Part shown: piece by piece, positions 8,912 to 61,296 of the stretch | How the letters are laid out: every line of letters begins with the position of its first letter | Position numbering within the stretch: the first letter of the stretch is position 1 | Assembly (NCBI RefSeq): GCF_006345805.1 | Contig: NC_043000.1 | Location: 14,694,001-14,758,000 of the forward strand | DNA length: 64,000 bases | Reading direction: 5' to 3' | Origin: Octopus sinensis | Taxonomy: Eukaryota | Position numbers and translations under genes: made by a program | The notes under the pieces: generated by a model | Seen by the model: only the letters and a program-made list of their open reading frames with translations | Database searches by the model: none | Told to the model about the DNA's origin: nothing

Positions 8912-9169
8912 ATATTACTTAATGCACACTGTATTAGAATTAGAGCTACTAATAATATCTTGTCATCATGACATGTGGTTAGGCAGATTTTTAAAACCAA
9001 CCATGCGTCTCCAAACAATCTACAGGCTCTGAGCACTATGTATCATACTTAGAACCCGAAGATTGTTTGGAGGCACAAGGCAAGTTATAAAAACCTGCCT
9101 AACCACATGTTTTAATAGTAAGAAACTATTAGTAGTTCTTATTTTAATACAGTCTACATGAAATTATAT
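8912..9169. repeat. Older, diverged long inverted repeat between (TG)n and (TA)n
   Basis: acatgtggttaggcag / ctgcctaaccacatgt and ctccaaacaatct / agattgtttggag pair symmetrically around about 9041. Confidence 0.75.
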
Positions 9170-9543
9170 ATATATATTACATATGTATACATAATTTTGT
9201 TTATTCATGTATATGTGTATATAATTGTATGTGTATGAACACACACATACATGAAATACACTATATTCTCTCATAACATATTCAGACTATCATTTATTAA
9301 TACACACATATACAGGCAAAGAAAATATCTGTTACACACATATTTATGAATGTACATAAACAAATACTTGCTTATTTGCAAGCACATACACAGATAGACA
9401 CTCACACATACACAGACTTACTGTGTAAATGGGAACCTTGTATAAAGTCTAAGGAATGTTGGTTTGGAATTTTATACTTCTGGGATTCTTAGCTTTGTAC
9501 AGATGAGAAGCGCTTAATACAAGATCTTTTAGTTGTAACCAGC

Positions 9544-9910
9544 GAGAAGTTCGTTATTGTGGGTGATTGAGTCTTGACAAGGAAAATTCATTGATGTGGG
9601 TGAGCATAGCTTGTTGAGAAGAGTCCATAGATTTGGATGTGTATAGCTTGTAGGGAAGAGTTCATTGTTTTGGGTGAGTATAGCTTGTTGGGAAGAGTTG
9701 TTTTGGGTGTGTATAGCTTGTAGGGAAGAGTTCATTGTTTTGGGTGTGTATAGCTTGTTGGGAAGAGTTCATTGTTTTGGGTGAGATAGCTTGTTGGGAA
9801 GAGTTCAGTGTTTTGGGTGAGTATAGCTTGTTGGGAAGAGTTCATTGTTTTGGGTGAGTATGGCTTGTAGCGGAGATTTCGTTGCTTCTAGTGAGTATAT
9901 CTTCTTGAGG
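9544..9910. repeat. 37-bp minisatellite, about 10 units
   Basis: Unit gagttcattgttttgggtgagtatagcttgttgggaa (starts at 9728 and 9765, for example); degenerate at both edges. Confidence 0.9.
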
Positions 9911-10324
9911 ATGTAATTCTGGATGATACTAGCTCATTTATGGATGAAAGTATTATAAACTGTACCTACATTATTAGGAAAAGTTTCCGTTTTCGATTAA
10001 GCCAATAATTTGATTTAATTACTGTTTAATGATGGTACTTATCTGATAGATGCTGATTTGAATTGAAACCAGACACATAAAAAATTTTACAAGTATCATG
10101 AAATGAGGTTTTCTTTCAGTAGCACAGAATTTGCTAGCATTGCTGAGAGGTCAGTGTTCAGATGTTTGCACTATACTGAATACCAAATAAAATCTTTTAT
10201 TTTCAAAGAACTTCTCATCTTGCTCTCTGAAAGATCTCAAGGATATAGTTTGCTGCTCTAAATGCCAACAACATTACATAGCTGATATTGTCCATTTTAT
10301 TCATTTATTTTAAAAAATTTATGG

Positions 10325-11034
10325 CAGTGGTTTTCAACTTGAGTTTAAATGTTCCTTGGTGGGGACCATATAAGATTTTATACATAATTTAGATTGGACG
10401 GATATGTGTCCTCTTGTTTGTTGTTACCACAACTTTTCAGCTGATTTACTCTCCAGCCTTCATCAGGTATCCTGGTAGGAATTTTGAACCCAACCCTGGG
10501 TTGTTGTTGTTATTATTCTTTATTCAAGGCACTGCCTGGAATTGGGGTTCGTAGCCCACACTCTTAATCATTACACTATATGCCTGTGGGCAATTATAGA
10601 GTGAATTTTAGGGCTTATAAACATATTTTCTTATCCTTCCTTAATACCAGTTCCCATATTCTACTCATATCTGCACTAGGTCTGCTTAGGAGGTTATTGT
10701 GTCCTAGCATATGTGCTGCCTCTTTTAGCTTTCATATTTTTCAGTGGTGTTTTCTGTCTATTATTTTAACAACAAACAAGATGACATGTATCCATCCAGT
10801 GTAAATAATGTACAGAATTCCTCCTCTCTAAAATATAGAACATATAAGATTTTGTTGTTAAAATTTATGAGCGATAAATTGATTATACTTTTATATCATA
10901 CATAATATTTTAATGATTTTTTTAATACAATTCCTAATAAATATTTTTTTAAATGATGAATAGCTATGAGAATTCACCCGAGTGAAATAAGAATCAAAGG
11001 GGGTCCATAGATAAAAAATGATTGAGAATCACTG
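10325..11034. mobile_element. hAT-type MITE interrupted by a 461-bp insertion
   Basis: TIRs CAGTGGTTTTCAAC / ATTGAGAATCACTG; flanking 8-mers atttatgg and ctttatag (degenerate TSD). A related left end lies at about 46238. Confidence 0.65.
10380..10840. mobile_element. Fold-back insertion with 13-bp TSD and hammerhead-like core (probably Penelope-derived, non-autonomous)
   Basis: TSD catataagatttt at 10367-10379 and 10841-10853. Imperfect IR at about 10381-10426 and 10767-10813. CTGATGA..GAAA on the minus strand at 10466-10435. Confidence 0.7.
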
Positions 11035-11802
11035 CTTTATAGTGCCAAGTTAAAATAATGTAAATCTTTGCTGTGTATCTCTTCTTGATACACTAAATTA
11101 CTGTACATTTTTTATGCAAGCAAAAATCCAGAGAATATTTGAAGGAGTGGACTTAAGGTGTGATATTTTACAAAAATCTTTTACAAAGTGGTAGAATTTG
11201 TAAGATAGTGAGAATATCCGCTCATAAATTCTGTGTTAATTGTGTATTTAAATAAAACGCTTTTACATTTCCTCATTGAATATAGTTAGCAGCATTTAAC
11301 AGAAAGCAGATTATCTGGGAATTAACTGTGAGCAGCTGCCATGCTAACCAAAGGGTATATCTGTTCAACACTATGAAACTGAAGTTAAGCACCAGCCTTT
11401 AAAAACTCTCAGAGCTTAGGTATTTTTGCATCATGCTTTAAAAATATGTCAGACATCCTTTCATTGTCTACATTTAACATCATCCCAGTGAAGTAATAGT
11501 GAATGTAGTCTGTTTTACTCTTTCCTAAAATGGGTGGCCTTATGTCTACTTCAGAAATCATTAAATTAGGTTATGGTGGCGAGCTGGCAGGATCGTTAGC
11601 TCGTCAGACAAAATATTTACTGACATTTCTTTCATCTATGTTTTGAATTCAAATCCCATCAAGGTCAACTTTACCTTTCATTCTTTTGGGGCCTATAAAA
11701 TAAAGTACCAGTCAGGTACTGAGGTCAATGTAATTGACTTGCCTATTCCCCTTATTATTGCTGGCATTGTGCCAAAATATGAAACCATTATTTATCTCCG
11801 GC

Positions 11803-12193
11803 CTCAGCATTCAGATTACTCTGTCAAATCATCATCATCATCATCGTTTAACGTCCGCTTTCCATGCTAGCATGGGTTGGACGATTTGACTGAGGACTGG
11901 CGAACCAGATGGCTACACCAGGCTCCAATCTTGATCTGGCAGAGTTTCTACAGCTGGATGCCCTTCCTAACGCCAACCACTCTGAGAGTGTAGTGGGTGC
12001 TTTTACGTATTTATTCATAGTTTTGAATTACTTGTGCATTATTTCATAGCTTTGAAATTTTGATGACGTAGCTGTTAATTTTAAGAATGATATTGCATGG
12101 TTAGTGAGAGATGGCAGATCTGGCCACCTTGAACATATAAAGCATGTAGAATATTTGAGCCAGATATGGCCAGTTTAAATACTAAAGAGTTAA
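11803..12193 (-). mobile_element. MITE family D, old copy interrupted by a SINE family C fragment (11829-12008)
   Basis: Reverse-complement match to family D on both sides of the SINE. Confidence 0.7.
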
Positions 12194-12220
12194 ATCAGAT
12201 TCCAACTTACTTATTCTTTT

Positions 12221-12422
12221 CTTTTCTTTAATTCTTTTATTTGTTTCAGTCATGCTGGAGCACCGCCTTTAGTCGAGCAAATCGACCCCAAAGCTTATTC
12301 TTTGTAAGCCTAGTACTTATTCTATCGGTCTCTCTTGCCAAACTGCTAAGTGACGAGGACGTAAACACACCAGCATCGGTTGTCAAGCGATGTTCGAAGG
12401 ACAAACACAGACACACAAACAT

Positions 12423-12462
<40 letters not shown>

Positions 12463-12622
12463 GGGTTTCTTTCAGTTTCCATCTTCCAAATCCACTCACA
12501 AGGCTTTGGTCGGCCTGAGGCTATAGTAAAAGACACTTGCCCTTGGTGCCACACAGTAGAACTGAACCTGGAACCATGTGGTTGGTAAGCAAGCTACTTA
12601 CCACACAGCCACTCCTGCGCCT
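12221..12622 (-). mobile_element. tRNA-derived SINE family A (CORE-like centre, internal (TA)n/(TG)n)
   Basis: A box TGGCTGTGTGG, B box GGTTC.., CORE-like ccttgggcaagtgtcttct, tail gaaacaagtaaaagagta. More than 20 full or partial copies in the window. Confidence 0.85.
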
Positions 12623-13070
12623 ACTTGTAAATATATTTCATACCAATACTTATTCTTTGCTGAGACAAAAAAAAAAAATGTCAAGTAAGCAATTTCAACA
12701 ATCACATACTAGGCGATTGGCTTAATTCTACACCCATGTGTGGAATCCCCATGCCATTTGAGTTTTAGGGGTTCTGAACTTGTAACTGAAATTTAGTCTA
12801 TGCATTTAGTGATAGATGTAGCAGTAAAGTAATTCATGACCTCTAGATTTCAAACATTTTTGTCATGTTTACATATCATTGTCTAAAATATGTACATTCC
12901 AACACTGTGAAAACATTACATTTTTCTCCAAAAATGTTTTGTTGATCTATTTAGTTTTGCATTGTGCGTTTGTCTTTTATACTAAAGGTCAGTAATTTTT
13001 TACCAGATTCTGAAAGCAGCGTGTGAGCGTGCATACACACACACACAAGTGATGTAACTATGCTATAAAA

Positions 13071-13216
13071 CAAGCGTGGGCAACCTTTTTTGAGAAGGGG
13101 GCCAGGTGGGGCATGGCTAATCATCAGGTGGGCTACACTTCTAAAAAGATTTGAAGTAATTTTTCATTAGGTCTGCTGTTAAGAAAGTCTCACAGGCTGT
13201 AGGTTGCCCATGGCTA
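13071..13216. mobile_element. Short hAT-type MITE
   Basis: caagcgtgggcaacct ... aggttgcccatggcta imperfect TIRs; TSD decayed. Confidence 0.55.
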
Positions 13217-13560
13217 CTGTACAGGGATAAAGGTTCAAATTTGATGTTGTAATTATGAATTAAGAAACTTGTTCACTATCTACTATGCTTTCACCACAAA
13301 ATTTTAAATATTTATATCTATAATAAGAAAAAAGAGGAGATTCTGTTACGAATGTCAAGGGCATTAATGAAATGAAGTGGTTTCTCTTGGAATTTGAAAC
13401 TAAGATTTAGACATGGTGTCTGTTAATGAGACAATAAATAAGCTTAAGCCTTGGCATAAGATTACATCTTTTGGGGGATGTGGGTAAAATTTATTGAATC
13501 AACTAGTTTTTGTCATCCTGAATGTAACTAAATACCACAAGGCATCATAACATTATATAG

Positions 13561-13890
13561 GCATAAGCATGGCTGTGTGTTTAAAAAGCTTGCTTTACAA
13601 CTACATGGTTTTGGATTCAGTGACATCTTGGTCAAGTATCTTGTATATCCCTGCCCCTACCAACAGACCGGCATGTATGAGTGTGTGCCTTTGTGTTTGT
13701 GCTCCCCACCCCATTACTTGGCAACCAGTGTTGGTTTGTTTATAGCTTCGCAGTTTGGCTCAAGAAACCAGTAGAATGAGAACCAGACTTAAAATAACAA
13801 AAAAGTACTGGGGTTGATTTGTTCAACCCTTCAAGGTGATGCCCCAGCATGACTGCAGTCCAATGATTGAAATAAGAAAAGGATAAAAGA
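13561..13890 (+). mobile_element. SINE family A, older copy
   Basis: Diverged head and tail. Confidence 0.7.
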
Positions 13891-14454
13891 AAAATACTGT
13901 GCTGTATCCACCATTGACTACTCAAATATTGATTTCTAAAATAGTCACAAAGACCTTATTTTATGGGTTTAGTCAGTTAAATGGACCTTGGGACTCAATT
14001 GGTATATTTGACAAACCCTGGAAGGATGCAACACAGTCGACCTTGAGAAAATTTGAATCCAGGACATAGAATTATTCAATTGAATATACAGTTTTGTTCA
14101 GTGGTTGACAGTTTCTCTATTACCTAATTAATAATAAAAAGAATGAGGAGAGGTGATTTTTTTTTTTCTTCTGTTCTTTTAATAATGTATTTTTTTTTTT
14201 GCCTGGATATGAGTGCAAGTGTTTTTAAACACAAAGAACTTCTACTGAACTGACCTATGGTGATTTATATGGAGACTGGTTTGCTTTGTTGACCTGTCAT
14301 GGTTCTTGTTGATGAAGTTGTCACTTATGTTCTCAACATTATCTTGGTATTTTGACTCTTGTTGACAATTGCAATGCAGTCCCATTTAGCACAACTGTTT
14401 GGCTGTTGACATTATTTTGATAAACAGGAAATGATGCTATCCTGTTGTCCTTTA

Positions 14455-14468
14455 TGTATATGTGTGTG

Positions 14469-14518
<50 letters not shown>

Positions 14519-14525
14519 ATATATG

Positions 14526-14559
<34 letters not shown>

Positions 14560-14580
14560 GATATACATACACACACACAG
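14455..14580. repeat. (TA)n/(CA)n microsatellite
   Basis: Seen directly; similar tracts at 6976-7026, 8784-8846, 49809-49866 and 59860-59950. Confidence 0.95.
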
Positions 14581-24824: not shown

Positions 24825-25974
24825 GTTTCTTGTCTCCTTGCCTTGACATCAAATGGCTGTTGTAAGAGAATATTACCATCATACAGGTGGTGTTCTTCAT
24901 TTCTCATCTTCTATATAAACATGTTTGACCATACTTTACTTGGGAATTTAGTGAATAGATTGCAGTGGGTCTTTTGCTAATATGTATCTGCAAAAAATGT
25001 AAACATAGGTAATATAATGTAAAGTATGTATATAATTTCATTTTTGTATTTGGCTTTCATGTTTCTTGATGTGAATTTGTGTGTTGAAACAAATCTTGTG
25101 CCTTGGAAGGGTCATTATGCCAATAACAACATACGCACTGGTTCAATATCACTTCTTTATTATTAGTAAATTGGTTAATAAATTTATTATTATATCTAAC
25201 CAACTAATTGATCATTTGTTTAATGTGTTGGTTAAACAATCGATCAGTTTTTGTTTGTCAAGATCCTTTTTTCGCTATTTGCAACCTCGTCAATGACATG
25301 CTGTCTCTGTTGAAGGTCTGCCTTGAGTCTGTCTGAGAATTAGTTTTATACCTGTATGTGTGTATATAGATGTATCTCTCAGATATACTGGGATTTGCTT
25401 GTCATCCTTGTAAAAATTTACGGGTGGTGTTCTTTATGAGGGGAGGGGAAGGGGAGAACAAGGTAGGTGTGTGTGTGTGCACACACAGGAGTGTGTTTTC
25501 TTGTGTGCATGTCTGTGTGGTTGAGTCCGTTCTGTGAGTGTATATGTCCGTGTGAGTGTTTATGTGCGTGTGATGTGGCAGGTCTTTTGAATAAGCAATC
25601 ATCTGTGTATGTCTGCATGTATGTATTTTTGTGTGTGTGTGTGTGTATGTTCCTGCATATTATGTACATATGCACCTGTGCCTGTTTTTGTGCTGTGTGC
25701 ATGGATATGCATTCTTGTGCATGTCTGGCCATGCATGTGTGTGTGTGCATGGTTGTGTATTGGAGTCGTTCATAATTACATGTATTCATTTGCATGGATT
25801 TCTATGCATCCTACTGTTATTCTAACCCTACCTTTTATATATCTGCCTGTACCACCACACACATGCCCATCCACATGCAGATGTACCCATAAATGCATAT
25901 TGTATGGGTGGTAACTGGCATTGTGGTTCTACTACATGCTATACATATTTTCTATTGAGAATTGGTAATGTCAT

Positions 25975-27060
25975 TTATGAGAACAGACTTGGGTGTCTGT
26001 CAAAGTGATGGGTCTCTTGGGTGTTTAGACAAGATATAGATGCTAATTCGATTTGGTATGCTGCCTTGTTGATCTTTAACATGCTATTAGAGTATAGACA
26101 ACTCTTGTCGTGCTCTTGTCGGTGTTCATTTTGTGTCTCTGCTAAAGTCCTGAAAGTTTCCTTGATGCATGTATTATTTTGGTTCTTAAAATCCCCCTCC
26201 ATTCGCTGTATGTTGTAGACCACATTCTTGGTCTTACAGTTTATTCAGGGGTTAAAGGTACATACAGTGCAGTTCCTATCAGTATATGTGGTCTTGTTGA
26301 AGGGGTACATCTTACATAACCGTGATCTGATGGCCCTCCTTGGTTTCTCTACAATCTTACTGTAGAGTTTGGTGTCCTTCAGAGCCTTCCTAAACTTGTG
26401 GGTTAACTCTACAAACATCACCACTTAAAATTTGTCTCATACCACATGTTCATTCTGTTTGCTTTATCATGTTCTCTGTAGTCTGTTCCATTGCTTGTAC
26501 TGATATCTAAGGTGGGTCCACTGACATCCTTATGATATTATCTAACTTATTCTTAGCACCCCCATACTCTCTGACCCTATCTCTCTGGTTGTCGCCAGAG
26601 AACTGCACATGGTGCATAAAATCTTTATTTCATAAAGTTCACACAGAAGGTGGAGGACACATTGTTCATTATTCTAACTAAATCTGCTATAAGAATGTTT
26701 ATCTTACATTGTGTGATAAAGCCGAGTTCTTGTGAATAACAAATTTGGAAGCTATGGGTTTCTTATAATAGGAGTGGAGGAGTTGGACTTCGTTGTTTGT
26801 AGTGTCTAACCAAAGTTCAGTATTAATGATAGGGAGTCTATTGTTAGGGTGCCTAGTAGGATAGTCTATCATTACCTTGATACTATGATAGGAGTTAGCT
26901 ACGTGCTGGATGGTCTTCATCGTACTTCTCTTGGCTTACTCAGTATGACCACATGGGATTGCCCTAACTACAATATTGATATCATCTACTACATATCTAC
27001 AGTATAACAGTTACAGAGTGTTCATCTAGGGATTGCCTACGTTTTTGTCCCAGCAGATAG
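25975..27060 (-). mobile_element. Decayed Penelope-like retroelement (RT C-terminus/thumb plus GIY-YIG endonuclease remnant)
   Basis: Minus-strand peptides IKVMIDYPTRHPNNRLPIINTELW..LLHSYYKKPIASKFVIHKNSALS (PLE RT end) followed by VVYNIQ..IKETFRTLAETQNEH (degenerate VVY..YIGET.RTL..R..EH). Many stops and frameshifts. Confidence 0.8.
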
Positions 27061-29761: not shown

Positions 29762-30215
29762 AAACCTTATCTTTTCATAAGAAATGTTTCAGTAGGGAAG
29801 GGTATTCACCTTAAGTTGATAGTGGTTCTGAAGAACTCTGACCCTGCTTGAGTGGCTCCCTATAATTTTTTTAGTTTTTGCAATTTGGAGATATATATAT
29901 ATTTTCATTTAAATTTATGTATTTTGTATATCTTTGTTTCGGTTTTTTTCTTTTAATTTATCTGACATTATTTGTGTCGGGCTAAATGCTTAACAATATT
30001 TTTTGTGATCCTTGTATGAACGTTCTGAGATTGAATCTCACTTGGACTGACCTTCACTTTTCATCATTCTGGGACTGATGAACTAATACAGGTCTTGTAC
30101 TTGGGCTGATTCTGTCAATTGTCCCCATCTCCAAAATGTTATGGCTGTGTGCTAAGATTTGTCAACATTACAATAGCAGAGCTTGTAGTATGCTGATTGA
30201 CAAAAACTCTATATA

Positions 30216-30345
30216 TAAGGTTGTCCCAAAAGTTCGTAGAAAGTCTTGGAAAATAATGGTCTTTATTTTGAGGAATAATTTTTGTTGTTTTTGTTAGTAA
30301 AAATTCAATTTTCGCAAGTGTTTACGAACTTTTGGGACAACCTAA
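30216..30345. mobile_element. Mariner-type MITE (about 130 bp)
   Basis: Perfect 21-bp IR aggttgtcccaaaagttcgta / tacgaacttttgggacaacct, flanked by TA. Confidence 0.8.
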
Positions 30346-31685
30346 TATAAACTGAATCCATGGTTCACTTTCACATCCAAGTTGAAACTTATTTGAACAC
30401 TAATATCCCTGGAAAAGATATGAATATTATGGATTCCTATTTAATCTCTTTAAATCCTCAGATTTAAGATCTTTATAAGAAACCATTCCATCAACATCAT
30501 TTAACATTGACTTTTCTATACTTGCAAGGGTCAGATGGAATTTGTTGGAGCAGATTTTCTATAGCCGAATGCCCTTCCTGTTGCCAACCCATATTTGTTA
30601 TTCAAATAGGGCAATATTTCCCCTTAGATAGACATGTTTTTCATGGAAGACTGGAAACACACAAACTTGCTTGTATGACAGTGAAGCTCATTTACAACCA
30701 TCACATGATGTCCTTTGGTTCAGTCCCACCGTATGGCACTTTGTAGGCTGAACAAAGGCTTGTGAGAAGCCTGTGTGAGTGTGTTTTATCCAGTTGGAAA
30801 TTTATCTCATCCTGGAAAGATTCTTCAGGAACATTCACATCTCTTATTAATTAGGACAAGAAACTCTATGGGCAATTTAGTAGCCATTTGTTTTTCCCAT
30901 TGGTGGGATTTTTTGGATTTTTTTATTTCATAATTTCTATTGAAGGGTGTTTTGTTTTCACTTAGGCAAGCAGAGTTGTGAGCTTTTGAACACACAGCAC
31001 GATGGAACCCTATCAACATTGTGATACTGCCTCTTGAATATCTCCTGTTCTGTTTACCTGTTAGTATTACAGTAGAAGTAAGATGAGAGATTTCTGGGTA
31101 GGGAAGGTTCCTAAATTGGTACGAAATTTGATGAGATGTTCTGTGGTTTAACAACAAAGTGAGTTTGACTGATCTCATGCAGCAATGAATAAATTGATGA
31201 AAGCGATGGGAGGCGGGGGGGGGGGCAATTTTTTTTTATGAAACAGAAAAACAAAAATCCGCAGCAAAAAAGCAAAACAGTGTTGCATGACATTTAATCT
31301 CTGTTTCCTCAAGTTGACCGATTCCTTCTCATATCCTATCTGTGTCATATGTTAACCTTTTCATATCTTTACCAGCTTCCTTTTCACCCAAACACTAATT
31401 GAAACTGGGTTATTGTTGTTGGTATAATTTATTGTCAGTTTCTTGTTTTATTGTTTATATTATTTTTTTTTCACTTAGTAGTTACTGCAATCCCCCCCTC
31501 CTCCCCTAATGTTCTTCTTGGTAAAGTTTACATACTTATTTGGTTTTCTTTGACTTTTTAAAATTTTGATAAGTTATTACTAAGTACTGGAAATGTTCTG
31601 TTCACATACACATGTATACAAAGGTACATATACAAAAATATACTAATGTATGTATATGGCTGTATCTCATAGGTACCCTAAGTTA

Positions 31686-31723
31686 TAATTTTAATAATAA
31701 TTATTACCTTTGAAGGTCTAATG

Positions 31724-31761
<38 letters not shown>

Positions 31762-31803
31762 CATACATTAGACCTTCAAAGGTAATAATTATTATTAAAA
31801 TTA
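31686..31803. repeat. Perfect palindrome with (TA)n centre
   Basis: 45-bp perfect arms taattttaataataattattacctttgaaggtctaatgtatgtat and its reverse complement. Confidence 0.9.
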
Positions 31804-33837
31804 AATATATATATATATATTAGGTTTATGATTTAAACACAAGGCCTGCAATTTTGAGGTATGAGGGACTAGTCAGTACTATTGATCCCAGTACTTGGCT
31901 GGTCCTTTTATTCTCAAAGTGGGCTATACTACACCCTGGAGGGACAAAGGGGCTTGTAATGGGCGATAGATGCATCTTTTAATGATCCTGATTTCCAAAA
32001 CTATTTTCAGTTTTTATTCTGTGTATGAAGCATATGGTTATACATTAGTGGTGGAAAATGTTTTGACATTCCATATTGTTAATGGTGATGAACTTGTCAG
32101 CAGCGGTATTTTTAGGGTGTATTTTTGTTGAATCATAGGAAGCGGGTGTTGAAAGAATGTGTTTAATAGAAAAGTACAATAGTTAAAAAGACGTTTGAAA
32201 AGCACTATGCTAAAAGTTCGGTCAATAACTAAGATCAAGTTGTGATGCATCAAATATTTGCTTATAGTAGGGTGGTGCTGTGATAAGTAGCCACCCACAT
32301 CAAACTAGCAGCCGGAACTAAATTATTCAAGGCTGATATTACATGCGTGCACATTAAAAATGGGGGAGCACTGAATTGCAGCAAGAGGTTGTTGAAAATG
32401 TGTTAGTAAAAGAAGAAAGGGCAATAGTTTGGGAAAAGCTTGAGGACTGCTATGAGTCTGAGCTTGTTTCATGTATGCATAAATGTCTGTATATATGATG
32501 GCATATACTGATGCATGGATATGCAATGTTACAAATGCATGCATGTACAAGGGCACTCATAATTGAATGTATATATAAGGGTATACATAAGGGTATATAT
32601 ATACAATGTTCATTCATACATGTAGACATATTTTACCCGTGTACTCTCATATATACATGTATAAACATGTATTCATAATCCGGTATGTATACACACACAC
32701 ACATGTATGTCTCTAACTGAAAGTTTGTACTCTCTACTATGCTTTCGCTGTTGTTTATATTTGTGGAGGTAATCTTATTCAGTGTCTGCTTTAAAGCAAC
32801 TCTGTTTTGGTCTATTTGAAATCTTTGAAACTCTCAGATCTCCTGACAATCTTTTCTACAAGTTACAATTCTCAATAATAAAATCTAGGACAAATGGTGC
32901 CAGTAGACTGAACTGTGAAGAGAGCAAAGAGAATTTATGTAAGGGTATGGTAGGGCAAGGTGCTATTTTTTTTTTTTTTATTGTACTTACCAGATCCTGG
33001 GTGTATCAATTCATTGGGGTATGTTGTTGTTGTTTAGCTACCAAAACCCAATCTAAAGTAAATTCTTCTAAAACAGTCCCCAAAGGCTTGAATGGTGGTC
33101 CACCAAATTTTGAAGGCAAGTGATGTTTGTTTAACACAGACTGGATTCAGTGACAGGATCCTGTTCTCAGATTCCCTTGAAATCTTTTCCATTCCAGCCC
33201 CACTACCATTTTTTTTTTTTTTTTGTTACTTATCACTGTTCAAATCAAAACAAATGAATAAGGAACACTGTCGTAGATGCGTGAATCACAGTTGAGAATA
33301 TATAATCTCTCAAATTAGCATGTATTTGTTTATTTATTGACTGCCAGTTTGTTGTGAATGAATTTACTGTTTTCATTGTGTGTAAAGTGATGCCTGTCTA
33401 CATAAGTTTTCCTTGCTGTTAGCCTACATTTTATGCAACAACTCTTCTCAGATGACAATATGTCAGGGTCACCACACTCTGTTATAGCCTCTTCCATAAT
33501 GTATTCCTTTAAGGTTACATCTGGTCTAGACCATTTGCTAATTGCATATATCTATTTTGGAATCATGCCTGTATGGAGAGGGAGTAAGATAGCTTCCAAT
33601 CAATGTGAAATAAGTCAAACATTTGGGTTTTGACCAAGTGTGTTGTTTCCCATGACCACTTTGTTAGTCTGTTTTTAATCAGCTGGTGTTGGTTGTGATA
33701 AGGGTGTTGTTATAAACCTGATTGAGATAAGGACGAGTGGCCACATATCCACTTGTATTGAGGATTACTGACCTCATTATATCTTAACAGACCAAATGCC
33801 AGTACTCTCCTACCTTTTGGAAAAGAGCTTCAGATAT

Positions 33838-34077
33838 TCTGTTGTGTCTGGGGAGAGTCATTTTCTTTTTGTGCCTTATTATTTAACACACTCACTGGTA
33901 AAATTTCCACTTATTTCATATTTTTATTCTCCTAAAATATGAAATAAGTGGAAATTTTTACTGGTGAGTGTGTTAAATAAGGCACAAAAAGAAAATGACT
34001 CTCCAGACACAACAGAATATGCTTCAATACACGAACTCATATAAAGAATCTTGCAAACCAAATCCCAAAACGAAATA
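33838..34077. mobile_element. Fold-back hairpin plus tail insertion with 12-bp TSD
   Basis: TSD agcttcagatat at 33826-33837 and 34078-34089; IR spans 33834-34020; 57-nt tail. Confidence 0.8.
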
Positions 34078-34395
34078 AGCTTCAGATATGTTGTCTTTCA
34101 AAATGCACCATCTATTAAATTCTAAGAGGGAGGAAAACAACAACAACAGAGTCGTTGTATGTAGCATGAATATGATTTGGTTTAATAAGTAACCAATTAT
34201 AACTGAAAGTTGTCATGTGAGAATGTCAAATTTTAGAATTTCTCATTGCAGACTGTGATCTGCTATGTCAACAACAATAACAACAACAGCAACAAGATTC
34301 TGTAAAATTTTTCTTTAATTTTCTTTCAATAAATAAACTTTACAGCCTTGCAGTTGTCTGAACTATTTTCCTTCGTAGTGATTCTGAAAGACATG

Positions 34396-37547: not shown

Positions 37548-37774
37548 TTAACCCTTTCGTTACCAACCCGGCTGAAACCGGCTCTGACTCTGGGTATAAA
37601 TGTCTTGTTTTCATACATTCTGAATTAAAATCTTCCACCAGAACTTAGTCACAATTTATGTTCCTAACATTAGCTTAATGATAACTAAGATATTTTACTA
37701 ATTTCTTTGTTATATTTAAAGTGATTGAAAGAAACACAAAGCATCTCAAAATAAATACAGTAACGAAAGGTTAA
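37548..37774 (+). mobile_element. MITE family E
   Basis: TTAACCCTTTCGTTAC...GTAACGAAAGGTTAA. Confidence 0.85.
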
Positions 37775-37902
37775 CCCTTTCGTTACTGTATTCAGAAGGA
37801 TTCGGGAGCCCAGAATGTCCTTCTACCATATATCTTATCCATGCTTGTCTCTATATAACTATATAACTGTCTCTGTATATGTATGTGCTACTTTCCATAT
37901 CT

Positions 37903-41309: not shown

Positions 41310-41985
41310 TATTTGTCACTTCTTTCAGTCATTGAATTGCAGCCATGAAAGATTTTAGTTGGACAAATCAACTCCAGTTTTTTTTATTGTAAGTCTGGTA
41401 CTTATTCCATTAGTCTCTTTAGTTGAACCACTAAATCACAGGAATGTGAACAAATCAATACCAGAGTAAAGATTATTTGCCAACATAACATTGCAGTCCT
41501 GGTTTAGGACGAATGTTGCTGTAATTTAGCCCCAGGAGACATCGTCTCCAGCTGGCTGTACAACACGATCTGTGTCCTTATATTTTCGAACAAGGATAGA
41601 TTGTGTCATATAGCCAGCTGGAGACGATGTCTCCTGGGGCTAAATTACAGCAACATTCGTCCTAAACCAGGACTGCCATGTTATGTTGGCAAATAATCTT
41701 TACTCTGGAGTACTGTTGCTGAATATCTCTCCTTGAGAGATTTACAAATAGTAATTTTCTAAATCAATACCAGTTGTCAAGCAATGGATTACAAACTTAA
41801 ACATGTACATATATATACACGCACACACATGTATAAAACAGGTTTCTTTCAGTGTCTGCCTACCAAATCCACTCATAAAGCTTTGGTTGGTCCAGAATAT
41901 AGTAGACACTTGTTCAAGGTGCCATGCAGTGGGACTGAACCCAAAATCAGGCGGCAGGGAAGAAAACTTCTTACTACACAGCCAT
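41310..41985 (-). mobile_element. SINE family A, older copy hosting the hairpin insertion
   Basis: The two halves rejoin at the TSD aaatcaataccag. Confidence 0.75.
41465..41760. mobile_element. Fold-back hairpin plus tail insertion with 13-bp TSD, nested in a SINE
   Basis: TSD aaatcaataccag at 41452-41464 and 41761-41773; near-perfect IR spans 41461-41708; 52-nt tail. Confidence 0.85.
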
Positions 41986-45718: not shown

Positions 45719-45751
<33 letters not shown>

Positions 45752-45869: not shown

Positions 45870-45900
<31 letters not shown>

Positions 45901-49190: not shown

Positions 49191-49249
<59 letters not shown>

Positions 49250-49807: not shown

Positions 49808-49878
<71 letters not shown>

Positions 49879-50611: not shown

Positions 50612-50643
<32 letters not shown>

Positions 50644-50646
<3 letters not shown>

Positions 50647-51278
50647 ATATATATATAAAGCTGAAATTGTCTGTGTGTGTGTGTGTGTGTGGCAGGTTTG
50701 GTAGCCTTCAACTAACACTATCTCTTCCGAGACCCTGCGGCGCAAGTTGACCAAAATTAAGAGTATGAATAAAGAAGGCTTGCTCTTTATTCCATAGAAG
50801 AAAAAATTCAAATTGGACCATGTTAAGATGAAAAATTATTTACATCAAAAAGGTGCTTTTTTCTATGAAAATCCCTATTTATTACGATTTTTTTGACTGT
50901 TGTGTCGCCATTTTTCGGTGTATTTCAACGAGAAAAATGTTCACTTAACCCTTTAGCATTTAAACCGGCCAAATCCGGCCAAAAGTATTCAGCCTGTTTC
51001 ATGTTCAAACTGACCAGATCTGGTCTCTCATACCAACCCTACAATATTGTTTTAAAAATTAACTGCTACCTCATCAGAATCTCATAGTTACAAGATAATG
51101 CATGATTAGTTCAAAACAGTATGGAGGAAAAAGCATTAATTTTAGCAGAATAATGTGAACACTAAAGGGTTAAAGAGAATAACAAGCTACATAATGCAAA
51201 ATTTTTACTTTTCAAAAATTCCAATTCTAAAGGGTCGAAAAGAAAACAAACCCGAGCAACGCCGGGCAATACTGCTAG
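50644..51278 (+). mobile_element. Non-autonomous Helitron, family 1, interrupted by a TTAA MITE
   Basis: Co-linear with 43480-43858; intact subterminal hairpin cccgagcaacgccggg plus CTAG end. The 5' end merges into a TA microsatellite. Confidence 0.85.
50945..51173 (+). mobile_element. MITE family D nested in a Helitron
   Basis: TTAA duplication; the empty site is visible in the Helitron copy near 43765. Confidence 0.9.
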
Positions 51279-52003
51279 TATATATATATATATAGTTAAT
51301 GTTTTTATGTACATAAAAACAGCGACTGACTAAAGTACTTGGTACAAGTGTAGAGTCTATTATTATAGACAATTTATTTATTGACAGTGAATTTGAAGCT
51401 TCACTAGGTTTGACTTATTCAAATTCTCAGACACTTTAAATAAGTCACACACCCTGCAAAACTCCAAAGTCACTATCAATTAATTTACGTAATATAAATA
51501 TAGTTACATACTTGGCAATAACTAACAAGTCACTCTCAGAGTCGTATGCATGTCTTGACATTGTTTATATGTTTAAAGCATGAAGCAATGTCACCACCTA
51601 AACTGTTAACCTTTAAACTTAATGTAAAAATATGTCTAGCTGTGGAATTATTTCTCAAGCAAGAGGCCATTGGTATAAAATTACCTTATATATAATCAAG
51701 TAAGGGCTGGTGGCATGGAGGGCATCTGGCTATAAAAAAAAACATCACATAGCTTGGAAAAAAAAACATTAAAAATAATCAAATATATAAAATCATTATC
51801 TAATGTCCCTGTTCCATGCTGGCTTAGGTCGGAATGCTCAACACGGTTCAAGTAAGGATAGTTTTGGTCTTTTCTACAACTGGATACACTTCCTAATGCC
51901 AACCACTTCACAAAGTGTACCAGGTGCTTATTTCGTGACACCAACACTATATGTATGTGAGTGTGTGTTTATGTCTACTTTTCCATATTAGCATATATAT
52001 GTC

Positions 52004-55450: not shown

Positions 55451-55617
55451 TATACATCATCTTTACTCCACAGATCTTTCTTGTTTGCTTGTGTGCTTAG
55501 GTAGGTGTGTGGACAGTGGGACTACATTAATAATTGTATTTTATTTTTTAAAAAAATATAACTGCCTTTTTTAAAACTGGTTTGTTAGCAGCTGTAACTA
55601 TTATTTTGTTGTTTCAG

Positions 55618-55708
55618 GTCAAAGCTAAATTCCATGAGGTTTTCAATGCAGTTGTCATTCAGCTTGGATTAAGAGAGACAGAGTACTTTGGATTATCTCT
55701 TTTAAAAG
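55618..55708 (+). CDS. Second coding exon of the FERM-domain protein: VKAKFHEVFNAVVIQLGLRETEYFGLSLLK(G/D)
   Basis: Acceptor ttattttgttgtttcAG and donor GTAACT (phase 1), open frame of 91 nt. The LGLRETEYFGL motif is characteristic of the FERM F1 (ubiquitin-like) lobe. The Expanded/FRMD6-like assignment is from recognition; PTPN13/FRMPD2-type FERMs are not excluded. Confidence 0.9.
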
Positions 55709-56808
55709 GTAACTATAAAGAATATTGTTAAAGTCTTTATAGACATACATAGATATAAAAAGAGCACTTTTATTTCAGCTGTTTCCAAAACAAATATGTC
55801 CGCAGCAGGTTATCATTTAAATAGATCCTATCAAAAGACAGGTTTCCTCAGAGATTTGTCTCTAAAATCTTTAATTATTTTTCCCTATTTTTCATAGAAT
55901 TTCAGCACTTCTTTATTTCTTTGTTTGTCATTGTGCTATTGGACAAAAATGTTCAGTATTCAAAGCCAATCAGTGTCTACAGAATATGCTCCATTGTCAG
56001 GGTGGATTATGTTGTGAATGGTCTTGTGCTGGGCTTGGATTGACACCAAGTAGAGAATAGTAACATCCGTGAATAATCTAAACGAAGTGGTTAGTTAAAA
56101 AAGAAAGAAAAAAAAAACGATACATTTGTCATGGTCGTTTTTTTTTGGTTTTTTTTGCCTCATGTCATCCCCTTTGAAGTAGACCTATAGATCAAAGCTA
56201 TTCCAGCTTTGATCATCCCATTCTTTTCGCAGACACAGTGTCTGGGACTGAATTATCTGTCTTTTCTTTTGTAAACGCTAAGGTGTGATTTGAAGGATAT
56301 TTAGCAACCATTTACCTATAGAATTTCTTTTGTTGGCTTCTCGGAAGATATTTTTTAGGTAGTAATGATAATAATTATTTAATTTAAACCATTTTGCAGG
56401 TCACTGATCTGGTCTTTGTTCTGACAGAAATCTGATAGATCATACTTTAAAACTCAAAGACCTGAAATATGATCATTCTTGGAGAAAGCGCTAAGGCTTG
56501 TAGAAATGATACAAAACATAGTTAAATGTTTCCCAGGTTTTCAGAATGTTTCTCTGTGTCCTGGCCAGGACAATATAGCAAGAAAAAAAGAACAACAGAA
56601 TGAAGCATTTTAGATTCAACTGAAAACTGAGACTGCTGCTACTGTTGATCAGGAAGTCATCAAGATGGTTATCTAATGGCAAAAGGATCCGATTTGTGTT
56701 TCATTACTTTGCTCAAATAACTTAAACCTCGGCCACAGTCCCTTTTAATTTTTCTTACTTGTTCCAGTCATTGGACTACTGCCATGGCAGGGCATTGCCA
56801 TGAAGAGT

Positions 56809-57037
56809 TTAACCCTTTAGTGTTCGCATTATTCTACCAAAATTAATCCTTTTTCATCCACATTGCCTTGAACTAATCAGGCATTATCTTGTAGCTTTGA
56901 GATTTTGATGAGGTAGCTGTTAATTTTTAAAACGATATTGTAGGGCTGGTGTGAGAGACCAGATCTGGCCAGTTTGAACATAAAACAGGCAGAATACTTT
57001 TGGCCGGATATGGCCAGTTTAAATGCTAAAGGGTTAA
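56809..57037 (-). mobile_element. MITE family D nested in an old SINE
   Basis: Reverse copy with TTAA ends. Confidence 0.88.
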
Positions 57038-58101
57038 TCAAACAAACCAAACCTGATGCTTATTTTCAAGTCTGGTACCCATTCTATTAATCTCTTTTTG
57101 CCAAACTGCTAAGCTGTGGAGATGTAAGCAAACCAACATCGGTTGTCAAGCAGTGTGTGTGGGGGGATAAACACAAAACACACACACATACACACACAAC
57201 AGGCTTGCACATAGTTTCCTTCTACCAAATCCACTCCCAAGGCATTAGTCAGCCCAGGCCTACAATAGAAGACACTATCCCAAGGTGCCACGCAGTGGGT
57301 TTGAACCTGAAATTACATGGTTGTGCAAAGTGAGCTCCTGAACGATACAGTTCCTAATTGTAATTAGGTGCCACAAGTACCAGAACTTAGAGAAAGAATG
57401 GGATTTCCATGCTGTGATTGACTGATGTACCACTCAAGAATAGGTGCATGTTTCAACTAGTTAACTCCATGAGAACTAAAGCAAACTCCAGCGCACTCCA
57501 TTCTTTATCATTAAACTGATGTCTCAGAAGGTTTCACAAAAAAAAAAAGCTATTGTGAGGAGGGTCAGCTGAGCAGTGTTAACTCTAAAGTAAAACCTCT
57601 CACATTAGGTGGTCCATGATTGAAAACACAAACAAAAAGTCAGTTGTTACATAGTTCGACATAAAAGAAAAAAATCATTTTAGATATTTATGAGGCATAC
57701 ACATAAAACCTAGTTCTGGGATTGAGGGTTTATATTCTACTATTAAAACTGTTTTTGTTCTCTCCCTAGAGCCTAATGCTCTTGACAAAGGCTTTAACAT
57801 CATAGCATTCTATCTCTTTGACTTACAACATTTGGTTTTTTGCTTATGCTTCAGTTACTATTATTATTATTATTATTACAGTTAGTAGAATTCCTAGCAC
57901 ACCAGACAAGTTTTTTTCATGGTATTTAGTTAGTAACAGCACTTTGTCTTCAGAGTTCAAATTCTGTCTGGGTTAGCTGTGCCTTTCATCTTTCCTGGGC
58001 TGATAAAAGAAGTACGGTTAAGTACTGGAGTTGGGAAGAGGGCAACATAATTAGCTACACATTTTCCCTAAAATTTGTGGCATTGTGCCAATGTAAGTTG
58101 C

Positions 58102-58121
58102 CATCATCATCACCACCACCA

Positions 58122-58171
<50 letters not shown>

Positions 58172-58180
58172 AATAATAAT
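58102..58180. repeat. (CAT)/(CAC)/(ATT)n trinucleotide repeat between two tail-to-tail old SINEs
   Basis: Seen directly. Confidence 0.9.
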
Positions 58181-58818
58181 TTTGGTACAAGGTCAACAAT
58201 TTCAGTGGGAGTGGGTAAGTTGATTGCATCAACCCCAATACTCAACTGGTACTTAATTTTGTTGACCCTGAAAGGAAGAAAGGCAAAGTTAACCTCTGCA
58301 TTTGAATTCAGAATGTAAGGGCATGCTAATGATTCTACCAGCTAATAATAATAATAATAATAATAGTAATGCCACGAAAGACAAGGTCAGTCTTAGTGGA
58401 ATTTGAACTTAGAGCCTGAAGAGGGATGAAATGCTGTGAAGCATTTTTACCTAGCAATCAGTGACCTTGGTTCTTTTAGAATTTAAAATTCAGTACTTCA
58501 CCATTTTAATTTTGAATATCCTACCAGAATATATCTCCCTATCGTTCTCAGGCATTTATGGAATAAGCACCAGTGATAATATAATTTAAGTTAATGTTAA
58601 TATATACCAATTCCTGTACATTGTCATTCATATAAAAGGAAATAGCTTTGTATCTTACTGGTTGTTATTGTTGCTTAACCCCTACTTTTTTTTTCTTTTT
58701 TTTTTTTTCTTCAAATGGGCAGAGTGTAAGATTTGAGATGGGTTTGGTTGCTATTTCTTGCAGCTCATGCACCATAGGCTTGCTTTGGGTTTTGGTGATG
58801 ATCAACAATTGATGGTGT

Positions 58819-59051
58819 TTAACCCTTTAGCATGCATTTATACCGGCCATATCCGGCCAAAAGTATTCTGCCTGTTTTATGTTCAAACTGGCCAGATCTG
58901 GTCTCTCACACCAACCCTACAATATCGTTTGAAAGATTAACAGCTACCTCATCAAAATCTCATAGCTACAAGATGATGCATGATTAGTTCAAAACAGTGT
59001 GGATGAAAAAGCATTAATTTCGGCAGAATAATGCGAACACTAAAGGGTTAA
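58819..59051 (+). mobile_element. MITE family D
   Basis: TTAACCCTTTAG...CTAAAGGGTTAA. Confidence 0.88.
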
Positions 59052-59696
59052 AGTGTGCAAAGTAAAACAGTGTTTGAAGTAATTGTGGTGTAGCATCTGT
59101 GTGAGTGTGCGCTAAGAAAGACAGGTGGGAAGGAATTACAAGTGTAAACCTTTCCAGCTTAGCAAAGAAAATGAATGCGATGGATTATGATGATGATGAT
59201 GATAATCATGTTGTCGTCATCGTTTTCTTCCTCCTCCTCATCATCATCATAACTCTTCTCCAGTTTCATCAAAGATTTCCAAAACATATTTCTGGCATCT
59301 TCTTCCTCTACAATATACATTATACCATTCTGTTGAGCCATTAGCATGCTATGACTCATTAGAGCCTCACTCAGGTAGGAGACCTCATACATCAGATACA
59401 CATGTAAAAATACTCCTTCGTCAGTTTGGAGTCTTCTGCAGAAGTCAAAATGCTACTGTTAATGCTATTTTCCTGCTAAACTTGTTTGGTTTAAACAAGT
59501 GGAACTTGCTTTTGTTTTTTCATCTTTCTCTCTCTCTCTCACACACATCTATCTGTCTGTCTGTCTGTCTGTCTCTCTGTATGCCTACTTATTTCTGTGT
59601 CTGCCTATTTGCCTGCCTGTCTATCTGTCTAGCCATCCAGCCAGCTGTCATTAGAATTTAGAAACTCCAAAAGACATGGAATAATTCAATTTTAAC

Positions 59697-59861
59697 AGGC
59701 GCATGAGTGGCTGTGTGGTAAGTAGCTTGCTAATCAACCACATGGTTCCGGGTTCAGTCCACTGCGTGGCATCTTGGGCAAGTGTCTTCTGCTATAGCCC
59801 CGGGCTGACCAATGCCTTGTGAGTGGATTTGGTAGACAGAAACTGAAAGAAGCCTGTCGTA

Positions 59862-59950
<89 letters not shown>

Positions 59951-60165
59951 CTGCATGTTTGTGTGTCTGTGTTTGTCCCCCCCCCAACATCGCTTGACAA
60001 CCGATGCTGGTGTGTTTACGTCCCCGTCACTTAGCGGTTCGGCAAAAGAGAATGATAGAATAAGTACTGGGTTTACAAAGAATAAGTCCCGGGGTCGATT
60101 TGCTCGACTAAAGGCGGTGCTCCAGCATGGCCGCAGTCAAAATGGCTGAAACAAGTAAAAGAGTA
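59697..60165 (+). mobile_element. SINE family A (young)
   Basis: Full-length. Confidence 0.9.
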
Positions 60166-60493
60166 AAGGAGAAAGAGAGAGTGGAAGTAGAAAAATGCCA
60201 AAAATAATAGCATGTACATAAGTGGGTTAAAAAGCTTTTTTGGATAGGAAAAAGAAGGCTGCTCTTGGGACACAGACTCACATCTTCTGTAAACAAACTT
60301 CTTTGAGTTCCACTTTAAAAATCTAATTATATAGCTGTGTGGAGGCGCAGGCATGGCTGTGTGGTAAGAAGCTTACATGGTTTTAGGTTCAGTTCCACTG
60401 TGTGGCACCATGGGCAAGTGCCTGACTGTGGACTCCGGCTAACTAAAGCCTTGTGAGTGGATTTTGTAGACAGAAACTGAATGCCTGTCATAT

Positions 60494-60900
60494 ACTCTCT
60501 TTACTCTTTTACTTGTTTCAGTCATTTGATTGCGGCCATGCTGGAGCACCGCCTTTAATGGAGCAACTCGACCCCGGGACTTATTCTTTTTGTAAGCCCA
60601 GTACTTATTCTATCGGTCTCTTTTGCCGAACCGCTAAGTAACGGGGACATAAACACACCAGCATCGGTTGTCAAGCAATACTGGGGGGACAAACACAGAT
60701 GCACAAACACACACGCATATATATATATATATATATACTACGGGCTTCTTTGAGTTTTCGTCTACCAAATCCACTCACAAGGCTTTGGTCGGCCCGAGGC
60801 TATAGTAGAAGACACTTGCCCAAGATGCCATGCAGTGGGACTGAACCCGGAACCATGTGGTTGGTAAACAAGCTACTTACCACACAGTCACCCCTGCACC
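60494..60900 (-). mobile_element. SINE family A (young)
   Basis: Full-length reverse copy, adjoining an older + strand head at 60343-60490. Confidence 0.9.
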
Positions 60901-61030
60901 TATATATATGTATATTTATATAAATTAAAATACTGAGGGTAGAAATTGATATCAATCAATTAACATCAATTTAAACCATTGGTCTAACATATTCAAAAAA
61001 TAAAAAATCCAAAGATTAAAAAATTATATT

Positions 61031-61289
61031 ACAATTAATAAGAGGAATGACCACTAAAGTGGATTCCTATACACTAGAAATAGACATCAAATTGCCTTAC
61101 CACAAAGAGTGTGTTCTCAAGAAAAGAAAAAAAACAGCAAATGCCAAAATGTAAATGCCTTGCTTATTTTTTACATTTTGGCATTTGCTGGGTTTTTTCT
61201 TGAGAACACACTCTTTGTGTTTAGGCGATTTGACGTCTATTTCTAGCAAATAGGAATCCACTTTAGTGGTCATTCCTCTTATTAATTGT
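61031..61289. repeat. Long inverted repeat (arms of about 120 bp) with an unpaired extension on the left, in TA-rich flanks
   Basis: Arms 61031-61155 and 61170-61289, 14-nt loop. Confidence 0.85.
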
Positions 61290-61296
61290 TATATAT

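What the first reader, a model, noticed from the sequence alone, without database searches (positions are those of the whole stretch)
8912..61295. Recurrent TSD-hairpin-tail-TSD micro-elements: one insertion architecture across unrelated sequences
Seen: three insertions with clear 12-13 bp TSDs (10380-10840, 33838-34077, 41465-41760) start at once with one arm of a long inverted repeat, end the second arm about 30-60 nt short of the other TSD, and finish with an unpaired tail. Hairpins at 8912-9169, 31686-31803, about 51320-51540 and 61031-61289 have a similar one-sided extension but sit in TA/TG microsatellites that hide any TSD. The sequences share no visible similarity, so the common feature is the mechanism. 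They are not MITEs, because the IR is not terminal at both ends and TSD length varies. Established: Penelope-like elements make inverted-repeat insertions with a terminal tail and often carry hammerhead ribozymes. Inference: these are several families of ultra-short non-autonomous fold-back products of PLE reverse transcription. About 7 occur in 64 kb, a decayed PLE lies at about 26 kb, and each would place a ready-made dsRNA stem in intronic RNA.
Basis: partly seen in the sequence, partly recalled or inferred. Interest (0 to 1): 0.72.

Follow-up and report, generated by a model that had tools for sequence, protein, structure and literature searches.

The report
Penelope-type head-to-head hairpin insertions
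These hairpins are short, back-to-back insertions of several unrelated Penelope-type jumping genes and of ribozyme-motif repeats, a known kind of structure, and their two ends sit at two different fixed points, which likely records two copying enzymes starting on one RNA from both cut DNA strands.

Summary
Observation mostly confirmed. Five of seven hairpins (8912, 10380, 33838, 41465, 61031) share one architecture: two head-to-head arms from the 3' end of a repeat, one with a 30-105 nt tail, one without; three have 12-13 bp TSDs, and 33838 has an empty site in a related organism. They are not fixed-length fold-back families: both outer ends are fixed but the apex differs per copy (133 bp to 4.9 kb). 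Three derive from ORF-bearing Penelope-like elements (PLEs; RT/GIY-YIG directly upstream in longer copies), two from ORF-less tandem hammerhead monomers (353 and about 530 nt; retrozyme type). Two-armed copies pair a tailed with a tail-less end in 24 of 24 scorable cases, arms share variants, and either arm can be longer: this favours double priming at two RT start sites over single fold-back (inferred). 31686 has another geometry; 51320 is inconclusive; 'intronic' is untested. Inverted pLTR plus tail plus TSD is published; the scan noted two-site insertions before for retrozymes elsewhere in this genome. New here: the same rule in coding PLEs and retrozymes, the size continuum and an empty site.

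The parts
8853..9175 (-). Family E two-armed insertion (tail 8855-8907 on the left, arms 8908-9173) in CA/TA microsatellite; 3' end of an ORF-bearing PLE, Hydra-like by motif
   Evidence: endonuclease-like frame directly upstream in L197 (no Pfam hit)
10367..10379 (+). left TSD of family C insertion (13 bp)
10380..10770 (-). Family C tail-less arm: pLTR with hammerhead motif (about 10420-10480) and the last codons of the GIY-YIG ORF of a Penelope/Poseidon-type PLE
   Evidence: 10698-10770 is 89% identical to the ORF end in L219
10767..10840 (+). Family C tailed arm (about 46 nt paired plus about 30 nt tail)
10841..10853 (+). right TSD of family C insertion
25034..27060 (-). decayed, 5'-truncated PLE (RT end, GIY-YIG, CA-rich 3' UTR, tailed end); sister of the family A parent
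   Evidence: 67.7% over 1116 nt to L216; 74% to the family A end at 25035-25116
31643..31803 (.). Family F (about 490-nt hammerhead monomer) fragment 31656-31717 between 13-bp direct repeats (31643-31655, 31718-31730), then (TA)n and an inverted copy of the junction; different geometry
33826..33837 (+). left TSD of family A insertion (12 bp)
33838..33938 (-). Family A tail-less arm
33939..34077 (+). Family A tailed arm (tail 34017-34077, 61 nt); 3' pLTR of an ORF-bearing Neptune/Nematis-type PLE
34078..34089 (+). right TSD of family A insertion
41452..41464 (+). left TSD of family B insertion (13 bp)
41465..41595 (-). Family B tail-less arm
41598..41760 (+). Family B tailed arm (tail 41705-41760, 56 nt); piece of a 353-nt ORF-less tandem hammerhead monomer
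41761..41773 (+). right TSD of family B insertion
51296..51597 (.). old, weak inverted repeat beside (TA)n; membership not established
60918..61296 (-). Family D two-armed insertion (tail about 60918-61024 on the left, arms 61025-61295) in TA microsatellite; piece of an ORF-less tandem monomer of about 515-555 nt with a variant hammerhead motif

Best explanation
The hairpins are heavily 5'-truncated, head-to-head insertions of Penelope-like elements and of ORF-less hammerhead repeats that likely borrow their enzyme, and each is likely made by two reverse-transcription events primed from the two cut target strands at two different fixed start sites on the element RNA. Shown: parent families, two fixed outer ends (tailed T and tail-less t), variable apex, variable TSD, T-with-t pairing, shared variants between arms. 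Inferred: a GIY-YIG endonuclease makes a staggered cut of about 8-15 nt; one 3' end primes cDNA at T and the other at t on the same RNA (or RNA of the same source locus); both cDNAs stop early and independently; one cDNA end anneals to the other by short microhomology or with a few added bases, and fill-in gives TSD, inverted tail-less arm, junction, tailed arm, TSD. The hairpin is a by-product of insertion, not the unit that replicates.
For: Tail-anchored searches: at least 15 of 30 family A and 22 of 30 family B copies are two-armed, lengths 171-456 and 133-503 bp, outer ends fixed. ORF-bearing family A copies show the same T/t ends at 3123, 4629 and 4859 bp (3 of 3 with both ends visible among 8 fetched). 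T pairs with t in 12 of 12 scorable family B loci found with an internal query (23 distinct loci: 6 one-armed, 5 nested or with an end elsewhere) and 9 of 9 scorable family C loci besides the window copy. One-armed copies end at T or at t, so t is a start site of its own. Arms of one copy share 41 (A) and 39 (B) non-CpG variants against 9.4+-3.0 and 19.9+-3.3 in 2000 shuffled pairings, none reaching the observed value. Tail-less arm longer in 7 of 15 (A) and 16 of 22 (B); tailed arm longer in 6 and 5. B junction microhomology 2.0 nt against 0.66 by chance in 13 blunt junctions, 0 of 10000 simulations; reciprocal junctions at one 4-nt repeat occur in both orientations. TSD of 8 nt or more in 15 of 27 (A) and 35 of 47 (B) copies with non-microsatellite flanks against 2% and 0.5% in shuffled flanks. 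Empty site. In vitro, a Poseidon PLE cuts and extends both strands, starts RT at two adjacent internal sites that bound the tail, and is a predicted dimer (PMC11167929, passages and second half of main text read).
Against: No intermediate was observed; the order of events is inferred from finished insertions. Deletion at the apex after insertion could scramble arm lengths and mimic independent truncation. Family A microhomology is not significant (3 blunt junctions of 15, P = 0.19; 12 have inserted bases). 71 of 80 shared variants also occur in other copies, so they show a common source lineage, not one RNA molecule. Samples are the best 30-40 hits of each search, not random copies; the family C set was found with a query holding the t end. 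No autonomous partner was identified for B, D or F. 31686 does not fit and 51320 is unresolved.
Confidence: 0.7

Rival explanations
1. PLE products, but the second arm is made by fold-back self-priming of one cDNA (or of an antisense template, as proposed for rotifer PLEs), with later apex deletions giving the uneven arms.
For: Explains shared variants between arms and the microhomology or short palindromes at junctions; 9 variants shared by both arms are private to one copy. Self-priming was proposed in PMC3846280 (passages read).
Against: A cDNA begun at T and folded back cannot give a tail-less arm that reads further upstream, yet 23 of 37 do, some by over 200 nt (L140). It gives no reason for the copy-back to stop at t, where one-armed copies also end. 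CpG decay is mostly unshared between arms.
Confidence: 0.2
2. The hairpins are themselves fixed-structure non-autonomous families that are re-copied as whole palindromes.
For: Six of 28 family B copies picked for likeness to the window copy have an identical junction; B, D and F are ORF-less.
Against: Lengths and apex vary continuously; the six same-junction copies share 3 arm-specific variants against 5.4 in random sextets and differ in a subfamily marker; A, C and E continue into coding sequence.
Confidence: 0.05
3. MITEs or fold-back DNA transposons, or local inverted duplications unrelated to retrotransposition.
For: Long inverted repeats and short size; 31686 itself looks like a local inverted duplication around (TA)n.
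Against: No family has terminal repeats at both ends; TSD length varies from 8 to 15 nt; about half of A copies are one-armed; parents carry RT/GIY-YIG and hammerhead motifs.
Confidence: 0.03

Closest known systems
EN+ Penelope-like elements with inverted pLTR and tail (PMC3846280, PMC8557442, PMC8969392; passages read)
   Same: Inverted 5'-truncated copy at the 5' end, tail at one end only, TSDs of 8-10 bp in rotifer copies, microsatellite targeting, pLTR hammerheads, RT plus C-terminal GIY-YIG.
   Different: Here truncation is so deep that only pLTR pieces remain, giving near-perfect 130-500 bp hairpins; tails of 53-105 nt exceed the 30-40 bp described; the passages read do not state a rule that T pairs with t.
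Poseidon element PAc of the green anole in vitro (PMC11167929)
   Same: Two RT start sites bounding the tail; both strands cut and extended; AT-rich targets; hammerhead cleavage not needed for insertion.
   Different: The parts read report no head-to-head products and no difference of start site between strands; the genomic copies here show one site per side.
Metazoan non-LTR retrozymes (PMC7229834, passages; preprint 10.64898/2026.07.22.740005, abstract, PLE-origin section and discussion read)
   Same: ORF-less tandem monomers of a few hundred bases with type I hammerhead and palindromic loop III (families B, D, F).
   Different: Monomers of about 490 and 530 nt exceed the 150-450 bp range given; the PLE link in the preprint rests on phylogeny and co-occurrence, whereas here the insertion ends carry the PLE signature; circular RNA and cleavage were not tested.
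L1 twin priming (recalled, no call)
   Same: Both target strands prime RT on one RNA; junction by microhomology; TSD kept.
   Different: L1 inversions do not duplicate sequence; here both cDNAs cover the same region from two fixed nearby sites, so a palindrome results.

Membership tests
EN+ Penelope-like element (families A, C, E) | RT plus GIY-YIG ORF in the same orientation directly upstream of the repeat end | tested here: met
   A: L216, L311-L313, L316-L320; GIY-YIG 28.8 bits above cut-off in L313. C: L218-L220; RVT_1 32.5 bits above cut-off in L219. E: endonuclease-like frame in L197 recognised by motif only, no Pfam hit, RT not seen.
EN+ Penelope-like element (families A, C, E) | Tail at one end only, two fixed 3' ends | tested here: met
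EN+ Penelope-like element (families A, C, E) | Hammerhead motif in the pLTR | tested here: inconclusive
   Met for A (U3-A8 variant, as described in PMC4209133 passages) and C; not found in 4 decayed E copies. Rfam listed no hammerhead in the window.
EN+ Penelope-like element (families A, C, E) | TSD of variable length | tested here: met
   A: 15 of 27 with 8-15 nt and an empty site; C window copy 13 nt; E in microsatellites, not resolvable.
EN+ Penelope-like element (families A, C, E) | RT groups with a named PLE clade in a tree | not tested
   Clade labels (Neptune/Nematis-type, Penelope/Poseidon-type, Hydra-like) rest on cysteine motifs compared by eye with PMC8557442 passages.
Non-LTR retrozyme (families B, D, F) | Head-to-tail monomers of a few hundred bases without an ORF | tested here: met
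   Periods 351-354 (B), 513-557 (D), 486-495 (F); longest ATG frames 31, 69, 92 codons in one locus each.
Non-LTR retrozyme (families B, D, F) | Type I hammerhead motif | tested here: met
   B and F have core, stems I and II and palindromic loop III; D has core, stem I and loop III but lacks the usual G-C pair at the base of stem II.
Non-LTR retrozyme (families B, D, F) | Self-cleavage and circular RNA | not testable with these tools
   No raw RNA reads were available.
MITE / cut-and-paste DNA transposon | Terminal inverted repeats at both ends and a fixed TSD length | tested here: not met

The most novel reading that the evidence does not exclude
All EN+ PLE clades and their retrozyme parasites integrate by an obligatory two-site, two-strand priming step, with one RT of a dimer at each start site of one RNA. 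This makes head-to-head palindromes a normal insertion product and makes PLE machinery the main factory of the roughly 100,000 long perfect hairpins in this genome, and so a main source of the very high dsRNA and ADAR hyper-editing load reported for octopus.
Probability: 0.3. Interest if true: 0.7.

Novelty: new member of a known kind. Interest (0 to 1): 0.42.

Why it matters
How PLEs build inverted ends and the one-sided tail is an acknowledged open question (PMC8557442, PMC11167929). The T-with-t rule, shared arm variants and free arm lengths make a sharp prediction for the existing in vitro system. The same end signature on ORF-less hammerhead repeats is direct insertion-level support that animal retrozymes move by PLE enzymes, which the preprint read argued from phylogeny. 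Such hairpins are common in this genome (17 strong ones in 400 kb of arbitrary sequence, not classified) and are easily mislabelled MITEs or miRNA precursors; octopus is reported to have an unusually high fraction of near-perfect dsRNA loci, and Penelope is heavily edited in lizard (PMC5625713 passages).

Tried and rejected
Rfam scan of the window: only generic miRNA-hairpin matches below gathering scores, no hammerhead; hammerheads were found with my own descriptor. Host gene: 145 of 291 candidate frames outside repeats scanned against Pfam, none above a curated cut-off, so 'intronic' is neither shown nor excluded. No RNA holder listed; one run guessed to be RNA had only low-depth contigs, so expression and editing were not assessed. 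Empty sites in closer samples: none seen; contigs of 4 runs carry the flank-element junction of 33838, and 2 of them that of 41465. An empty site for 41465 or 10380 was not tested in the more distant organism (cap reached). 51320: only 4 other hits at 70-75% identity, self-alignment score 71 against a 99th percentile of 49 and a maximum of 84 in 300 random pairs: left unresolved. Amplified fixed-apex subfamily of B: rejected. Strong homogenisation of arms after insertion: not supported, CpG changes are mostly unshared. No family A copy was found in which the tail runs on into the ORF start (8 long loci). The frame list had a coordinate bug and was redone. Literature: searches found no paper with double priming or T/t pairing terms for PLEs or retrozymes (0, 1 and 3 papers, the last two already known or reviews); subscription papers and all supplements were not seen, and supplementary figures of PMC11167929 and PMC8557442 may bear on this.
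Full report
Setting. The window is G000:C4:14694001-14758000 of a 2.72-Gb animal genome.

1. Observation. Self-comparison finds all seven inverted repeats and three exact TSDs: 13 bp at 10367/10841, 12 bp at 33826/34078, 13 bp at 41452/41761. Sixteen local inverted-repeat hits stand against none in each of ten shuffles. The seven sequences are unrelated to one another. For 33838, one contig in each of three runs of one study (a related organism, flanks about 4% different) joins 33825 to 34078, skipping the 240-bp element and one TSD, so this is a true insertion with a true duplication. Corrections: 8912 and 61031 have their tails on the left and outside the stated coordinates (about 53 and 105 nt); 10380 has only about 47 paired bases and a long one-armed middle; 31686 has another geometry; 51320 is too decayed to call.

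2. Each is a member of a dispersed family. First-look candidates in the genome were 2139 (A, 33838), 2060 (B, 41465), 5087 (C, 10380), 1644 (D, 61031), 832 (E, 8912), 163 (F, 31686) and 5 (51320); these are not copy numbers. Searching with the whole element gave look-alikes of similar length, which is a bias of the query. Searching with the tail alone showed the real picture: at least 15 of 30 A and 22 of 30 B copies (window copies included) are two-armed, 171-456 and 133-503 bp long, with both outer ends fixed and the apex free; the rest are plain 5'-truncated copies. Two copies scored as one-armed (L099, L123) show a decayed inverted arm, so the counts are lower bounds. TSDs of 8 nt or more occur in 15 of 27 A and 35 of 47 B two-armed copies with non-microsatellite flanks (of 42 and 50 two-armed copies), against 2% and 0.5% for shuffled flanks, mostly 8-15 nt.

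3. Parents. A is the 3' end of an ORF-bearing PLE: RT, a cysteine linker and GIY-YIG lie upstream of a CA-rich UTR and the repeat end (GIY-YIG above the Pfam cut-off in L313). Three long copies are head-to-head insertions of 3123, 4629 and 4859 bp with the same two ends as the 240-bp window copy, so the hairpin is the short end of a size series. C follows an RT and GIY-YIG frame directly (L218-L220), and the window copy holds the last codons of that frame. E follows an endonuclease-like frame in L197, recognised by motif only. By cysteine motifs compared with passages of PMC8557442 these look Neptune/Nematis-, Penelope/Poseidon- and Hydra-like; no tree was built. B, D and F have no ORF parent in the loci seen: upstream of the monomer lies the tail of the previous monomer, with periods of 351-354, 513-557 and 486-495 nt. 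Hammerhead motifs lie 150-260 nt upstream of the tailed end in A (U3-A8 variant, described in PMC4209133), B and C, and are also present in D (variant) and F, but were not found in four decayed E copies. The decayed PLE at 25034-27060 is 68% identical to the A parent.

4. Mechanism. Shown: (a) two fixed ends per family, T and t, 30-105 nt apart; (b) one-armed copies end at either; (c) two-armed copies pair T with t in 12 of 12 scorable B loci found with an internal query (23 distinct loci; 6 one-armed, 5 nested or with an end elsewhere), 3 of 3 long A loci, and 9 of 9 scorable C loci besides the window copy (of 30; that query held the t end); (d) the two arms of a copy share 41 (A) and 39 (B) non-CpG variants against 9.4 and 19.9 for shuffled pairings, though 71 of the 80 are also seen in other copies; (e) the tail-less arm reads further into the parent in 7 of 15 A and 16 of 22 B copies, the tailed arm in 6 and 5; (f) B junctions carry excess microhomology, 2.0 against 0.66 nt in 13 blunt junctions, while A junctions mostly carry inserted bases and are not significant; (g) six B copies with an identical junction share no more arm-specific variants than random copies, so they arose independently at a short natural repeat, where the reciprocal junction also occurs. 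Both outer arms read antisense to the RNA from their target end, so each has the polarity of a cDNA primed by one cut strand. Inferred: a staggered cut, two RT events from T and t on one RNA or RNA of one source, independent early stops, annealing of the two cDNA ends, fill-in. This agrees with the in vitro behaviour of PAc, which cuts and extends both strands, starts at two adjacent internal sites that bound the tail, is a predicted dimer and does not need ribozyme cleavage (PMC11167929). I put PLE origin at about 0.95 and this mechanism at 0.7. The main rival is single fold-back with later apex deletion (0.2), proposed as self-priming in PMC3846280; it struggles with (b) and (e).

5. The exceptions. 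At 31686 a 62-nt piece of F sits between 13-bp direct repeats, and the junction with its target repeat is then duplicated in inverted form across a (TA)n run. The hairpin centre is host DNA and the arms face tail to tail; a local fold-back at the microsatellite is the likely cause (inference). Other F copies do show the standard head-to-head form. 51320 remains unresolved.

6. Density and function. Forty arbitrary 10-kb stretches hold 61 local inverted repeats in 399,900 bases against 12 in the window; strong gap-free hairpins (180 bits or more, counted from the output) are 17 against 6. The window is therefore at most about twofold enriched, and the genome would hold on the order of 100,000 such hairpins; these were not classified for tail or parent. 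Whether the window is intronic, transcribed or edited was not established. PMC5625713 (passages) reports an exceptionally high dsRNA fraction and hyper-editing in octopus and heavy editing of Penelope in lizard, which makes the link worth testing.

7. Comparison and novelty. Inverted 5'-truncated pLTR, one-sided tail and short TSD are published PLE features (PMC3846280, PMC8557442, PMC8969392; passages only), and nearby hammerheads on opposite strands were noted in PMC4209133. Animal retrozymes are known (PMC7229834) and were linked to PLEs by phylogeny (10.64898/2026.07.22.740005). Searches found no paper stating the T-with-t rule or double priming, within an open-access library and without supplements. 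Earlier unreviewed notes of this scan report two-site head-to-head insertions for retrozyme families elsewhere in this genome; I had reached the two-start-site reading before that look-up, and the notes prompted the pairing count. They are not independent support. What this window adds is that coding PLEs of apparently three types and ORF-less monomers obey the same rule, the continuum from 133 bp to 4.9 kb, and an empty site. Verdict: real, explained, a new member of a known kind with a testable mechanistic lead; interest 0.42.

Noticed in passing
family A loci L091-L120: 14 of 30 tailed arms stop 193-204 nt from the tailed end, 4-15 nt upstream of the hammerhead core and not at its cleavage site (158); 4 of 15 tail-less arms stop at 193-196. 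Could be an RNA 5' end (promoter or splice acceptor) or an RT stop at a short palindrome; three B copies stop 11-26 nt upstream of their core. Unexplained.
   Followed up: partly
L314, L315 (G000:C15:63649500-63657500; G000:C29:2281500-2291000): A young PLE family, 59% identical in protein to the A parent, with open frames of 1120 and 1044 aa, a long asparagine-rich N-terminal part and head-to-head arms of 1.7-2.0 kb at 99% identity; a candidate active element.
   Followed up: partly
window 33994-34077: The end of the tailed arm of family A reads as an open frame of about 28 codons from an ATG in several copies, as expected if the tail is the start of the next unit's ORF; no copy running on into the ORF was found.
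   Followed up: partly
No one-sided TSD found.
   Followed up: no
window 51238-51295: A short GC-rich hairpin followed by CTAGT and a TA run, resembling a Helitron-type 3' end (label recalled); the same end occurs in flanks of L007 and L226.
   Followed up: no
window 2754-2791, 30212-30349, 37754-37792: Further short inverted repeats; 30212-30349 resembles a small TIR element seen again in L336 and L357.
   Followed up: no
L219 (G000:C7:52224000-52233600): A family C PLE copy lies between exon-like frames of a VCP/CDC48-like gene on the opposite strand (recognised by eye from translations), so at least some copies are intronic.
   Followed up: no
L220:6752-8779: A different PLE (RT and GIY-YIG frames) starts directly after the end of a family C copy.
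   Followed up: no
window 9587-9907 and 61295-61476: Tandem arrays of 37-nt (8.8 copies) and 58-nt (3 copies) units.
   Followed up: no
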